Positions 50,095 to 62,459 of a DNA stretch of 64,000 bases are shown piece by piece. Under the pieces are notes generated by a model, which saw nothing but the letters and a program-made list of their open reading frames with translations, was not told the DNA's origin and ran no database searches. Every line of letters begins with the position of its first letter. Position 1 is the stretch's first letter. The translations under genes were made by a program, and so were the position numbers. The stretch lies in the NCBI RefSeq assembly GCF_009914755.1, contig NC_060947.1, one strand, 5' to 3'. This stretch comes from the human T2T-CHM13v2.0 reference genome, Homo sapiens.

Positions 50095-50325
50095 GGCTAG
50101 ATGGTCAAAATGGATATGGAACAACCAGTGTAATTCTTTCAGAAGGCCCACTCCCTGGCCAGCCTGCCAAATTATTAAATTCTTTGTTAGGTCTTCTGTT
50201 CTTTTTGTCCACTCTATATTTTTCTGGAACTGTTTACACAAAGCTGAGAACTGGGTGGGGTTTTCATTCGCAATGAGCTACAGTTTTCTTAGGGACAATA
50301 GTTTAATAGATTTATACAATCCTCC

Positions 50326-50621
50326 TTTTTTTTTTTTTGAGATGGAGGCTCACTCTGTTGTCCAGGCTGGAGTGCAGTGGTGCGATCTCAGCTCACTGCA
50401 ACCTCCACTTCCCAGGTTCAAGCAATCCGCCTGTCCCAGCCTCCCGAGTAGCTGGGATTACAGGCACACACCAGCACACCTGGCTAGTTTTTGTATTTTT
50501 AGTAGAGGTAGGGTTTCATCATCTTGGCCAGGCTGGTCTCGAACGACTGACCTCAGGTGATCCACTGGTCCTCAGCTTCCCCAAGAGCTGGGATTACAGG
50601 CGTGAGCCACCATGCCCAGCC
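50326..50621 (-). mobile_element. AluS
   Basis: Antisense Alu dimer. Confidence 0.95.
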
Positions 50622-50641
50622 TCTTTCTAAATAATATTTTA

Positions 50642-50953
50642 TTTTATTATTTTATTTGTATTTATTTATTTATTGAGACAGAGTCTCACTCTGTCGCCAG
50701 GTTGGGGTGCAGTGGTGCGATCTCGGCTCACTGCAACCTCTGCCTCCCGGGTTCCAGCGATTCTCCTCCCTCAGCCTCCTGAGTAGCTGGCATTACAGGC
50801 GCCTGCCACCATGCCAGGCTAATTTTTGTATTTTTAGTAGAGATGGGGTTTCACCAAGTTGGCCAGGATGGTCTTGATCTCTTGACCTCATGATCTGCCT
50901 GCCTCGGCCCCGCAAAGTGCTGGGATTACAGGCGTGAGCCACCGTGCCTGGCC
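50642..50953 (-). mobile_element. AluS
   Basis: Antisense Alu; TSD-like tctaaataatatttta / tctgaagaatatttta. Confidence 0.95.
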
Positions 50954-52947
50954 TCTGAAGAATATTTTAAAAGCAAGCAAACAAAAACACACAGTAGCAA
51001 ATCTGGGAAAGAGGCCACTGAATCTGAACATTTTGTCATTTTGTCAAGCAGCACCTAATTCACAGATATGGATGACTGAGCCCTGAGAACTACTCAACAG
51101 AATCCATACGTCCAGGAGACAGGAAAGCTTTACTAGATGAGGGTTAGGAGAAGAGGTGGGATCTTTGTGGCAGAAACGAAATCGATGATGGGGTAAGTGA
51201 CTCTGTAGGGATCCAGGAAAGATGGTGGTTCAGATTGTACTAATACATTTGGAGAAAGATAAGTTTGTGAAGGCTCTCAAGATTAAAAACCATGCAAGGC
51301 TTGGCTGGACCATGGGCTCTTTGGCCCACCTCATGAAAGGGCCTCTCAGAAGGGAAGACATCAGCTGTGGGTTATGTTTTAAAATTCTAGGAAACAAGCT
51401 ACACAGAGGGTCTATGTTTATATTATGAGTCACAGCAGGGACAGGTGATGGGTCTAGGCCTTAACGTCTGCATACAATGTCTCTGACTGCCAAGATTGCT
51501 CTGAGGAGTTGTTTGTAAGAGTGAGTTTGAAAAGGAAATAAGGGAATGAAAAGGCCTCTTTCTTTCAGTGACCATTTTATACTTTGGACTCTTTTCTTCC
51601 ATTTGGTAAGGACAAATGATAGCAGTATACAAGGGATGTTGTAGCAACTTAAACTGTTCAGCAAAATTTCAGCAGGACCTTCGATGAAAAGTACTGAACA
51701 CTAGATACTACTAGGAATAGGAATAATATGAGAATGAATAAAGAGATAAATGAATGAATCACAGGGAATACCCTGGATAATGGATAATGAAAAAGTAATA
51801 AAGAAACACCCCATTCTTTTTAAACGGAGAGTCAGAATTCAAAAATATTGGCTGCTTGGAAACTCCACTATCTTAGCTTTAAAGCTCTCCCTTTTGTTCC
51901 TGAAATTTTATCTCTAGAATTTTATGTGCCATCTGCCAAATGTCCTTAGCTTGTCGCTATAACAGCCATTAACATTCCATGGGTCCGCTACTCAGTCAGT
52001 AAAGATTGACATCATGGCCATATTATATAGAACTGCCAAGGAAGCCAGGCCAAGCATGATTTTCCACATCCACTTCAATTGTTGTCTTAATTTCTTTGAC
52101 AAAGACCTGAATTAAAGAACAAGAGAGAAACCTGTAGAGCATGGCAACAACAAAGAAATAGACACGGAACTGCTTTAGGCAGAAACACACACACACAAAC
52201 ATTCCCAAGTGCACACATACAGACAAATAAGCAGCAGGACTTGTTCTGGACAGCTGAAGCAATATGCACCCCCGCAATAATGAGGCTTTCATCTCATAGC
52301 TCATTATTAATGCAGGGGAGCTTGATGAAGAACAAGGATGTGTTCTACAATTCTATGAGAAAATTCAGTCTGCAATTTGAGCTAGAGGACAGCAACAAAG
52401 ATAAGCACCCAATGGAGCATCTGACCCATACTTAGTTATATTTCTATTAAAATGTCCTTTTTCAATTTGAACTAATTATGAGCGTGTAACTGATAGTGAA
52501 GAACACCAAGCATCAAATATTTTTTACAACTCATTTGGCTTCTGGTTGTGCTATATTGTTGCCTGTGATAGAGTTGGGTTTTTGAGTGGTGGGATCACCC
52601 TGGACCAAGGAAGTTATTTCTGCATTGTGTTCAGCCCCAGCAGCCCTGTTTCAGTTCTCAAGCAGGCCAAGCATCCTCTTGAATTCTATGTCTTTGCTCA
52701 GATTGTTCCCTCTGACCATGCTTTGTCATACACCCACAAGCACTCACTCAATGTTTCTTGGTTTCTTGGTGGTGGTGATAACAGACATGCCATGCTTCTA
52801 GGACTGGACACTCCAGGAACTTGACTAGGTACATGGCAAAGCCCTGGAAAAGAAAGAGCACAGATTGGGGAAATAACAAGGATGGATGTGAATTCTGGGC
52901 TTTTCAACTTACATCCTGTGAGAGTCAACTAATAAAGTATAAGAATT

Positions 52948-60899: not shown

Positions 60900-61110
60900 T
60901 GAATATGTGTTGAATTTTCAGACTGAATGGTTGAGTGCACTACATTTCGTATTTTCTTTTGAAACACAGATAACAGTCTCCCTGTACAGATGAGGAAATT
61001 AAGTCTTAGAGAATTTAAGCAAACTTTCCAAGCTTAACACCTTAAATAAATGGCAGAACATAAATTTTAACCCATGTTTGTCTGATTCTGAACTCAATGT
61101 TCTCTCTCTG
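60900..61110 (-). mobile_element. MIR, positional counterpart of the 55220-55510 MIR
   Basis: tacagatgaggaaattaagtcttagaga...tggcagaac...aacccatgtttgtctgattct. Confidence 0.7.
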
Positions 61111-61269
61111 CCCCTACTACACTGCCTTCTACTTAGATGGTAAGCTTTTAGAGCTCAAGGACTGTATAATTTGAATTGCCTTGATAAAGTGTCCATGCCT
61201 GGTCATAAATGTTAATATTCATTATGCTGTAATTGTATAACAGAGTCTGGAGCTCAGAAGAAAAGGCCT

Positions 61270-61577
61270 GTGGTGGCTCATGCCTGTAATCCCAGCAGTT
61301 TGGGAGGCTGAGGTGGGTGGATCACATGAGGTCAGGTGTTCAAGACCAGCCTGGCCAACATGGTGAGACCCCGTCTCTATTAAAAACACAAAATTAGCCA
61401 GGCATGGTGGCACATGCCTGTAATTCCAGTTACTCAGGAGGCTGAGGCTGGAGAATTGCTTGAACTCAGGAGGTGGAGGTTGCAGTGAGCCAAGATTGTG
61501 CCATTGCACTCCAGTCTGGGTGACAAGAGTGAAACTCCATCTCAAAAAAAAAAAAAAAAAAAAAAAAAAAGAAAAGA
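61270..61577 (+). mobile_element. AluS
   Basis: Alu with long A tail; TSD aagaaaag(g/c)cctgtggtgg. Confidence 0.95.
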
Positions 61578-62459
61578 AAGAAAAGCCCTGTGGTGGAGAT
61601 ATAATTTGGTCTAACAGTTCTTTGCACTTATTTGGTATACCATAACTATTTGTTGAATAAATAAAAGAAAGAGAGAAAGAAAAAAATGAATATCTGTTAG
61701 TCATCATTAAATCAGCAAGTAAAACTGGATACATATCTCTTCCTTTTTTATTCATGTGATTGAAAACAGAATGGGGATAATTCTGTACAGGCTGTTTCAT
61801 AAAATGCTTTTTGTAAATAAAGCAAAGCATATTTCTTTTATCTTGTTAAATCATATTTTTAGCAGATACGATAGAATGTACATTATAGAACTACTATAGG
61901 GTGAAAATGGCAATATTTTTAGTATTGTCTAGGATATAGTAGACTGAACAAGTATTACTCCTGTCTCCCTGCCTTCTCTCTCCCATTAAATATATGATTT
62001 TAATGTAATTTAAATAGTAAAATTATTACAGAAAATATTAGAAATGTAACAGCAACAAGTAAAATGTAAATATATTTTAGTAATCTGTGAGCTTCAGTGT
62101 CATTTCTGTGTTATAGGATGAATTACCTGGTGAATATGGGACAAGGGAAAAATAATCATTATGCCATTTTCTTTATGTTCATGTCCCCTTTCCTGTCTCT
62201 GGTATTACCCTTTAGTGGATCATCAGAGAAATAGTTTTTCTACTGAGCCCTAGAAATAAATAACAGTAGTAGTCCTGCTTGTTAGAAGACTGAAGATAGA
62301 AGATCTAGAATCCATATGCCAGATCCATTACCAATTACTGGACCATGGGTGTGTCTGTCTTTCTCTGAGATTGCCTCATTTCTAAAATACAAAGTACTAT
62401 ATAATAGACTGAATAGTAAGAAACTGACATTTTTCTTTGTCAAAATGCTCCAGTTGTGA

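What the first reader, a model, noticed from the sequence alone, without database searches (positions are those of the whole stretch)
50100..61850. Cryptic ancient head-to-tail duplication of non-repeat DNA with short high-identity blocks
Seen in sequence: the following anchors are colinear and on the same strand. (1) 51019-51072 vs 58504-58557, 46/54 identical and ungapped. (2) Exact 21-mer gtttgtgaaggctctcaagat at 51263-51283 and 59220-59240. (3) ccattaacattc at 51966 and 59845, inside ~250 bp of alignable sequence. (4) gaacccagaatg...atgggg at ~54598 vs gaactcagaatg...atgggg at ~60439. (5) ttgggacccaga at 54751 and 60539. (6) cataatgtaaat at ~55088 and ~60763. (7) cagcaagtaaaa at 55799 and 61713. 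The sequence between anchors is much more diverged and matches no repeat family I recognise. Inference: two paralogous units about 6-8 kb apart, with patchy conservation that suggests a duplicated enhancer, ncRNA or small-gene module.
Basis: partly seen in the sequence, partly recalled or inferred. Interest (0 to 1): 0.8.

Follow-up and report, generated by a model that had tools for sequence, protein, structure and literature searches.

The report
Old decayed local duplication, Xq22
Two neighbouring stretches of human X-chromosome DNA between ARMCX2 and NXF5 really are ancient copies of each other, but they have decayed evenly and show no sign of a gene, RNA or conserved switch, so this looks like an ordinary relic of how this region was built.

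Summary
All seven anchors exist and lie on one same-strand colinear chain: unit A 51017-55916, unit B 58502-61933. The best block is about 970 bp at nhmmer E=2e-45, and reversed-sequence controls gave 0 hits. Every offset jump is a later insertion: an SVA-type element in A, and a ~535-bp dispersed transposon and an Alu in B.

The units are not a dispersed repeat. About 16 kb of unit and family sequence searched genome-wide found only Xq22 relatives. The equally diverged B-only transposon gave 77 candidates with the same tool.

The unit is a mosaic of local low-copy families. Its left part (beta) matches the distal promoter region of ARMCX6 and of a second BGW-motif locus about 202 kb upstream. 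Its right part matches NXF5 intron sequence and several intergenic sites.

All paralogue pairs are about equally distant (K2P about 0.42-0.46), which fits the early-eutherian duplication burst that built this region.

The functional reading is not supported. High-identity blocks are no more frequent than uniform 67% decay predicts (431 of 5000 shuffles reach the longest run). No BGW motif, NXF exon, Pfam domain, shared ORF, Rfam family or conserved fold was found.

Dfam and cross-species checks could not be run.

The parts
51017..55916 (+). Unit A as a whole (about 3.4 kb of ancestral sequence once later insertions are removed)
   Evidence: Colinear chain to unit B
51017..51141 (+).
   Evidence: nhmmer E 8e-8 to 58502-58597; 78% identity over 96 columns
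51229..51737 (+). A beta block: local low-copy element also present in B, C, X (upstream of ARMCX6) and X2
   Evidence: nhmmer E 2e-30 to window -65687..-66208 minus strand; five-copy alignment A1
51738..52200 (+). A post-beta block, shared with B (the first ~160 bp, to 51900, also align to C)
   Evidence: Part of the continuous 51233-52200 ~ 59191-60087 alignment; 68% identity, K2P 0.42
52943..54300 (+). SVA-type composite retrotransposon inserted in A only (hexamer run, antisense Alu-like part, 37-40-bp VNTR, tail, poly-A). The name comes from the recalled structure of SVA.
   Evidence: The tail 54192-54277 has 30 scored genome-wide matches, 29 at 91-99% and one at 76%. It accounts for the ~2.0-kb offset change.
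54330..54915 (+). A block 3, shared by A and B only; locus D has 54 bp at this position
   Evidence: nhmmer; 63% identity, K2P 0.51
54977..55061 (.). Short dispersed repeat fragment in A
   Evidence: 9 scored genome-wide matches at 78-84%
55064..55916 (+). A blocks 4-5 (F family), also colinear with NXF5-intron locus D at window +159863-160631
   Evidence: nhmmer A~D E 1.5e-15; A~B E 2e-6 with A as query, 3e-11 with B as query; K2P 0.43-0.46
58502..61933 (+). Unit B as a whole
58642..59180 (.). Discrete ~535-bp dispersed transposon inserted in B only, flanked by 8-bp direct repeats GTGCCTAT / CTGCCTAT (7 of 8). The hAT-type reading is inferred from the duplication length.
   Evidence: All 39 non-self scored genome matches of the B query fall here; 20 nhmmer hits in the 62-kb sample; junctions. 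It accounts for the +474-bp offset change.
59191..60087 (+). B block 2 (beta 59191-59745 plus post-beta)
   Evidence: nhmmer E 7.5e-46 to A; beta E 4e-23 to X
60155..61182 (+). B blocks 3 and 4
61262..61590 (+). Alu inserted in B only, with a ~17-bp target-site duplication
   Evidence: Rfam SRP-like matches; junctions. It accounts for the ~+310-bp offset change.
61641..63028 (+). B block 5 and distal F-family sequence, colinear with D (+161864-162767) and H (+73514-77900)
   Evidence: nhmmer; K2P 0.44-0.45
49406..49834 (+). Copy C: third, partial beta copy upstream of A
   Evidence: nhmmer E 2e-15 to A 51410-51900, E 1e-17 to X, E 6e-6 to B
50317..50996 (-). Two antisense Alus between C and A; not part of the duplication

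Best explanation
Units A and B, with fragment C, are decayed products of an ancient local segmental duplication. It happened inside the eutherian-specific Xq22.1 'BGW/NXF' region, which was itself assembled by serial duplication. An ancestral mosaic segment of about 3.5 kb was copied about 7.5 kb along the same strand. Its order was: block 1, beta, post-beta, block 3, F. Both copies then drifted neutrally to about 67% identity. They were later split by an SVA-type element (A), a ~535-bp DNA-transposon-like element (B) and an Alu (B). The components belong to local low-copy families. Beta is the distal end of a 2-kb promoter-proximal region shared by ARMCX6 and a second BGW-bearing locus about 202 kb upstream. 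F recurs in an NXF5 intron, in two 88%-identical inverted loci beside Tap-RNA_bind exons (NXF2/NXF2B by recall) and in several intergenic sites downstream. Shown: the homology, the insertions, the local restriction and the uniform decay. Inferred: the duplication mechanism, the age (K2P 0.43, roughly 100 Myr at a recalled neutral rate of about 2.2e-9 per site per year, which is a lower bound) and the absence of present function.
For: 1) The colinear same-strand chain is far beyond chance (the controls give nothing).
2) Every offset change equals a discrete later insertion with its own hallmarks.
3) Mosaic argument: A and B share, in the same order, two different local families (beta and F). 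They also share blocks that have no other copy in the 264 kb examined: block 1, the post-beta sequence beyond its overlap with C (51900-52200), and block 3. Block 3 is missing at the corresponding point of D.
4) Not dispersed: genome-wide DNA searches with 51000-52940, 54190-57400, 58300-61265, 61591-64000, D and X (15.9 kb in all) returned only the queries themselves, X, X2, A, the two 88% copies of D, the three inserted repeats, and 11 short (39-119 bp) hits.
5) nhmmer against a 62,433-bp sample of 20 unrelated loci gave 0 hits for 5 of 6 unit/family queries and one marginal hit (E 1.4e-4) for the sixth. The B-only transposon control gave 20.
6) Sensitivity calibration: copies of that transposon are as diverged from each other (mean identity 0.686, K2P 0.415, 55 pairs) as A is from B, yet the first look returned 77 candidates for it.
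7) Context: passages of PMC1274310 and PMC7586669 state that the 2.3-Mb GLA-GLRA4 interval is eutherian-specific and expanded by duplication before the placental radiation. The ARMCX2/3/6 promoter paralogues are at K2P 0.37, in the same class as A-B.
8) X and X2 lie in a contiguous 2.05-kb paralogy (E 2e-179), with a BGW motif about 1 kb downstream in both.
Against: 1) No repeat library (Dfam/RepeatMasker) could be consulted, so a rare old transposon family cannot be formally excluded.
2) A and B are not measurably closer to each other than to other family members: in beta, A-B K2P is 0.43, A-X 0.42, B-X 0.43, C-A 0.43; in F, A-B 0.43, B-D 0.43, A-D 0.46. That star-like pattern also fits a transposition burst.
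3) F-family pieces occur in both orientations at several downstream sites, which is transposon-like behaviour.
4) The genome first look misses many ~65% matches. It did not return the known A-B pair.
5) The local clustering of F was noticed after the fact.
6) No other mammal's genome could be examined, so neither the age nor the absence of constraint is shown directly.
Confidence: 0.75

Rival explanations
1. A and B are two independent insertions of one long, rare, old transposable element (for example an LTR-plus-internal element). Under this reading X, X2 and C are partial or solo pieces, and D, H and the other sites are internal fragments.
For: All pairs are equally distant. The A/B homology has a sharp common left edge at 51019/58504, and both copies begin with TG. 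F pieces occur in both orientations. Beta shows a common left edge in the A-X and X-X2 comparisons.
Against: No reverse transcriptase, integrase, gag or transposase remnant in six frames with stops read through (0 real hits in 18 translations; the only hit was Melibiase_2 at E 0.014, below its cut-off). No copies outside Xq22 in 15.9 kb of genome-wide queries, while an equally diverged real transposon gave 77 candidates. 0-1 hits in the 62-kb random sample. X and X2 sit inside a 2.05-kb promoter paralogy and are not bounded insertions. No beta copy at the right end of either unit, as a provirus would have. No target-site duplication was identified around the units, though only the left edge was read.
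Confidence: 0.17
2. One reading: the duplicated units are kept by selection as a duplicated enhancer, non-coding RNA or small-gene module, and the high-identity blocks are its functional cores.
For: Block 1 is the most similar stretch (84% in its first 50 columns). Beta is related to a promoter-distal element that is 82-86% identical between two BGW-gene loci. Five-way alignment shows short motifs shared by all beta copies.
Against: Block clustering is not beyond uniform decay: 431, 827 and 1669 of 5000 shuffles reach the observed values. The longest ORFs (93 and 84 aa) lie at non-homologous positions, and the only colinear ORF match is 35 aa at 43% identity, below the DNA identity. No Rfam family apart from Alu-derived matches. 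The consensus fold of block 1 is -4.1 kcal/mol over 136 columns. No BGW motif in the units at E<=10. RefSeq lists no functional element here (the hub's table in the task text).
Confidence: 0.06
3. The similarity is chance or a low-complexity artefact.
For: None beyond the low identity (60-68%).
Against: nhmmer E-values down to 2e-45, with 0 hits in reversed-database controls. Reversed-partner alignments collapse.
Confidence: 0.01

Closest known systems
Ancient paralogous non-coding segments of the eutherian Xq22 BGW cluster (ARMCX/GASP, BEX, TCEAL promoters and 5'UTRs; PMC1274310, PMC7586669, passages read)
   Same: Same chromosomal region. Same divergence class: ARMCX2/3/6 promoter flanks at 71% identity and K2P 0.37, against A-B at 67% and 0.43. 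The beta block is homologous to the distal end of the ARMCX6 promoter-proximal region.
   Different: The units lack the defining ~60-bp BGW motif and E-box. They have no downstream gene and show no sign of the gene conversion that keeps BGW 5' regions similar. This particular intergenic pair is not described in the passages read, nor in the 4 papers returned by the search.
NXF2/NXF2B/NXF5 gene-family paralogy (PMC3652825, passages read)
   Same: The right half of each unit is homologous to a 5' intronic stretch of NXF5 (locus D). D has 88%-identical copies beside the Tap-RNA_bind exons of two inverted loci.
   Different: No NXF exon (Tap-RNA_bind, TAP_C) is detectable in or near the units. Identity to D is only about 66-68%, so the units are not NXF pseudogenes in any recognisable sense.
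Old interspersed repeats (LINE, LTR or DNA-transposon relics)
   Same: Comparable divergence to the ~535-bp element inserted in B; multiple local copies, some inverted.
   Different: No dispersed copies were found, no coding remnants, and no termini or target-site duplications were identified.

Membership tests
Segmental (local) duplication | Colinear same-strand homology over kilobases, beyond chance | tested here: met
   the reversed controls give nothing.
Segmental (local) duplication | Homology spans several unrelated sequence types, including unique sequence, in the same order | tested here: met
   Block 1, post-beta beyond 51900 and block 3 have no other copy in 264 kb; beta and F belong to different local families.
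Segmental (local) duplication | Breaks in colinearity are explained by later insertions | tested here: met
   SVA-type element, ~535-bp transposon and Alu.
Segmental (local) duplication | Both copies present at orthologous positions in other eutherians | not testable with these tools
Interspersed repeat (transposable element) family | Many copies dispersed over the genome | tested here: not met
   only Xq22 relatives; 0-1 hits in 62 kb; sensitivity calibrated.
Interspersed repeat (transposable element) family | Coding remnants (reverse transcriptase, endonuclease, integrase, transposase) | tested here: not met
   Pfam, six frames, stops read as X: 0 relevant hits in 18 translations. The L1-ORF probe test was uninformative.
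Interspersed repeat (transposable element) family | Match to a curated repeat consensus (Dfam/Repbase) | not testable with these tools
   No repeat library is available.
Interspersed repeat (transposable element) family | Defined termini with target-site duplications | tested here: inconclusive
   There is a sharp left edge at 51019/58504, but no duplication was identified. The right ends differ between A and B.
BGW element (BEX/GASP/WEX promoter-5'UTR motif) | ~57-60-bp motif with an internal E-box | tested here: not met
   A profile built from the ARMCX2/3/6 promoters finds those three plus orphans at -21.3 kb and -89.5 kb, but nothing in 45-64 kb at E<=10.
NXF pseudogene | Relic exons of the Tap-RNA_bind or TAP_C domains | tested here: not met
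   Genome-wide family scans place such exons in recognised NXF-type loci, including NXF5 at window 147-156.6 kb (Tap-RNA_bind also at two other sites, C19 and a weak C14 hit); none lie in or near the units. The NTF2 and LRR domains were not scanned.
Known non-coding RNA family (Rfam) | Match at or above the family's gathering score | tested here: not met
   17 matches at E<=1, all below gathering score; 16 lie in Alu or Alu-like sequence and one is a bacterial sRNA model at E 0.31.

The most novel reading that the evidence does not exclude
Beta is a second, so far undescribed, shared regulatory module of BGW-cluster genes. It lies about 1 kb upstream of the BGW motif and is kept 82-86% identical between ARMCX6 and a second BGW-bearing locus by selection or gene conversion. 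Under this reading, units A, B and C are the fossil upstream regions of three extinct BGW/ARMCX-type gene copies between ARMCX2 and NXF5, and they record an otherwise invisible stage of the cluster's expansion. A bolder version is that one of them still acts as a distal enhancer.
Probability: 0.1. Interest if true: 0.4.

Novelty: new member of a known kind. Interest (0 to 1): 0.15.

Why it matters
It matters little by itself. It is one more fossil of the duplication burst that built the eutherian-specific Xq22 region, and it shows no sign of present function. It has two modest uses. First, it shows that intergenic DNA between ARMCX2 and NXF5 still carries traces of both ARMCX-promoter-type and NXF-intron-type sequence, which could help reconstruct the order of duplications in the cluster. 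Second, the beta element upstream of ARMCX6 and of a second BGW locus is far better conserved between those two loci than the rest of the family, which may deserve a look by people who study BGW-gene regulation.

Tried and rejected
1) L1 origin, first test. Stop-to-stop translations of the window's repeat at 25.4-31.7 kb were used as tblastn probes. That element has no long frame on the strand used (longest 129 aa), so the test was uninformative for the units; it only picked up known L1 copies downstream.
2) L1 origin, second test. A weak antisense similarity of B 62807-63028 to L1 copies (E about 1e-4) did not reappear when five L1 3' copies were used as queries at E<=0.01. The lead was dropped as unconfirmed.
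3) BGW relics in the units: none found.
4) NXF exon relics: none found.
The question was left to the DNA queries.
The two 88% copies of D were therefore never read, and no larger random genome sample was taken.
8) Strict tandem (abutting) model: no A-B homology was found between A 55917-58501 and B beyond 61933. The recognisable units are therefore separated by a spacer.
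Full report
OBSERVATION

blastn with 7-base words and nhmmer merge the anchors into one chain on the + strand:
- A 51017-51141 ~ B 58502-58597 (E 8e-8).
- A 51233-52200 ~ B 59191-60087 (E 2e-45, about 970 bp without a break).
- A 54330-54915 ~ B 60155-60711 (E 5.5e-8 with B as query, 1.6e-5 with A as query).
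- A 55064-55572 ~ B 60738-61182 (E 3e-11).
- A 55620-55916 and B 61641-61933 are linked through a common relative at +73.5 kb and by the 12-mer at 55799/61713.

Controls: none of the 6 queries gave a hit at E<=10 against the reversed 264-kb database. Global alignment to a reversed partner shrinks to 7-48 columns, against 327-853 columns for blocks 2-4 and their halves, 163 for block 5 and 96 for the short block 1. The homology is real.

OFFSET JUMPS

The A-to-B offset runs 7485, then 7959, 7879, about 5835, about 5600 and 5914. Each jump is a later insertion.
- B 58642-59180 is a discrete ~535-bp dispersed element. All 39 non-self scored genome-wide matches of the query 58300-61265 fall inside it (77 candidates, 40 scored). 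nhmmer finds it 20 times in the 20 sampled loci, with several copies covering nearly all of it. It lies between 8-bp direct repeats that match at 7 of 8 positions.
- A 52943-54300 has the layout of an SVA (name recalled): a CCCTCT-type run, antisense Alu-like sequence, a 37-40-bp VNTR, a tail and poly-A. The tail gave 30 scored matches, 29 at 91-99% identity and one at 76%.
- B 61262-61590 is an Alu with a ~17-bp target-site duplication.
- A also holds a ~85-bp dispersed fragment at 54977-55061.

IS IT AN INTERSPERSED REPEAT?

This was the main rival, and no repeat library was available, so I used copy number.

Genome-wide DNA searches of the window's own 3.1-Gb assembly used six queries: 51000-52940, 54190-57400, 58300-61265, 61591-64000, locus D (window 159500-162900) and locus X (window -67000..-65000), 15.9 kb in all. 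They returned only:
- the queries themselves;
- X, X2 and A;
- two 88%-identical copies of D;
- the three inserted repeats;
- 11 short matches of 39-119 bp.

The tool warns that it skips very common words, and it missed the known A-B pair, so I calibrated it. Copies of the B-only transposon differ from each other as much as A differs from B (mean identity 0.686 and K2P 0.415 over 55 pairs). One pair scored 1.0 and I did not examine it. That 535-bp query still produced 77 candidates.

With the sensitive method (nhmmer), a sample of 62,433 bp from 20 unrelated loci gave 0 hits for 5 of 6 unit/family queries and one marginal hit (E 1.4e-4) for the sixth. The transposon control gave 20.

Six-frame translations with stops read as X gave no Pfam domain of any mobile element: 18 translations, with one sub-threshold Melibiase_2 hit at E 0.014.

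A high-copy dispersed family is therefore excluded. A very rare one is not.

WHAT THE UNIT IS MADE OF

Left part. A ~520-bp block (beta: A 51229-51737, B 59191-59745, C 49406-49834) matches window -65687..-66280 on the minus strand (X; E 2e-30, 4e-23 and 1e-17).
- X lies 1.1-1.6 kb upstream of the ARMCX6 start given in the hub's table.
- X has an 86% copy, X2, at C23:99927977-99928503.
- X and X2 are the distal end of a contiguous 2.05-kb paralogy (E 2e-179), with a BGW motif about 1 kb downstream in both.
- By coordinate arithmetic from Table 1 of PMC1274310, X2 lies near the start of GASP4/ARMCX4. This is an inference.

I derived the BGW motif from the ARMCX2/3/6 promoters. Its profile finds those three promoters, an orphan at -21.3 kb (E 1e-12) and one at -89.5 kb (E 1e-3), but nothing in the units.

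Right part (family F). A 55080-55915 and B 60725-61178 match window +159.8-160.6 kb (D; E 1.5e-15 and 3e-16). B 62169-63024 continues colinearly to D +161864-162767, and B 61920-62865 to H +77081-77900. Further pieces lie at +73.5, +113.5-114.4, +116.8-118.5 and +138.9-139.6 kb, some of them inverted.
- D lies within NXF5, about 2.9 kb upstream of its Tap-RNA_bind exons at window 156272-156580.
- The two 88% copies of D sit beside the same exons of two inverted loci. This fits the recent inverted NXF2/NXF2B duplication described in PMC3652825 (passages read).
- No NXF-domain exon lies in or near the units.
- All F copies fall between +45 and +163 kb. None were found in the 145 kb upstream; I noticed this clustering after the fact.

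WHY DUPLICATION IS PREFERRED

A and B share, in the same order and orientation, two unrelated local families plus sequence that has no other copy in the 264 kb examined: block 1, the post-beta stretch beyond its overlap with C (51900-52200), and block 3. Block 3 (516 bp in B) is represented by only 54 bp in D. Independent insertions would not reproduce such a mosaic.

Published passages say the whole GLA-GLRA4 interval is eutherian-specific and grew by duplication before the placental radiation (PMC1274310, PMC7586669). The ARMCX2/3/6 promoter flanks are at K2P 0.37, close to A-B at 0.43.

Against a simple story, all family pairs are equidistant: K2P 0.42-0.46 for A-B, A-X, B-X, C-A, A-D, B-D and B-H, and 0.38 for C-X. 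A and B therefore cannot be shown to be sisters by distance. The pattern fits one old burst, which a transposon burst could also give. At a recalled neutral rate of about 2.2e-9 per site per year, K2P 0.43 corresponds to roughly 100 Myr. This is a lower bound, because optimised alignments overstate identity.

FUNCTION

Over 2036 aligned columns (67% identity):
- The longest exact run is 22; column shuffles give 17.1 +/- 3.1, and 431 of 5000 reach 22.
- The best 54-column window has 47 matches; shuffles give 45.3 +/- 1.3, and 827 of 5000 reach 47.
- The variance of 50-column identity is reached by 1669 of 5000 shuffles.

Other tests were also negative:
- The longest ORFs are 93 aa in A and 84 aa in B, at non-homologous positions. 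The one colinear ORF match is 35 aa at 43% identity, below the DNA identity.
- Rfam gives only sub-threshold matches: 16 of 17 in Alu or Alu-like sequence and one bacterial sRNA model at E 0.31.
- The consensus fold of block 1 is -4.1 kcal/mol over 136 columns.

I conclude that the units are decaying neutrally. Cross-species constraint and chromatin data could not be checked.

NOVELTY

I found no description of this pair in the passages read from PMC1274310, PMC7586669 and PMC3652825, nor among the 4 papers returned for NXF5 / ARMCX2 / 'segmental duplication' (listing only). Supplements were not opened. It is a new instance of a well-known kind of thing and of low interest. The one point that may deserve follow-up is beta at ARMCX6 and X2, which is much better conserved (82-86%) than all other family pairs (about 67%).

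Noticed in passing
outside the window: window coordinates -66279..-65755 (L028:3721-4245, minus strand) and L046:1501-2027: A ~530-bp element about 1 kb upstream of the BGW motif is 82-86% identical between the ARMCX6 upstream region and a second BGW-bearing locus about 202 kb upstream of the window. It lies within a 2.05-kb contiguous paralogy (E 2e-179). This is far above the ~67% seen for every other member of the family, so constraint or gene conversion is likely.
   Followed up: partly
outside the window: window coordinates -21356..-21288 (+ strand): An orphan BGW-type motif (profile E 1.4e-12, containing CACGTGAC) lies about 4 kb from the ARMCX2 start and is not at an annotated gene start in the hub's table. 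A weaker one at -89576..-89496 lies 5' of ARMCX7P.
   Followed up: no
outside the window: window +159500-162900 (L044:5500-8900) against C23:100816287-100819599 and C23:100756627-100759939: 3.3 kb of NXF5 5' intronic sequence is 88% identical to two inverted loci that carry Tap-RNA_bind exons (NXF2/NXF2B by recall and PMC3652825). This is much more similar than the ~67% of the other local paralogues, which suggests a later duplication or conversion between NXF5 and NXF2.
   Followed up: no
window 55314-55399: A perfect-register tandem duplication of a 43-bp unit (95% identical) inside unit A's F block. It is absent from B, so it is a young local slip.
   Followed up: no
window 52943-54300: A short (~1.35 kb) SVA-type composite retrotransposon with a 37-40-bp VNTR of about 10 units. 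The hub's mask list shows it only as two pieces.
   Followed up: partly
window 58642-59180: A ~535-bp dispersed element with an 8-bp target-site duplication (7 of 8 matching) and no obvious terminal inverted repeat in its first and last 40 bases. Its copies are about 69% identical to each other. The family name is unknown without a repeat library.
   Followed up: partly
window 60733-60911 and 61947-62116; also 58117-58446: Within and just before unit B, pieces of the F family occur in inverted orientation relative to each other (67% over about 180 bp). Both match one locus at +138.9-139.6 kb. The arrangement is unexplained.
   Followed up: partly
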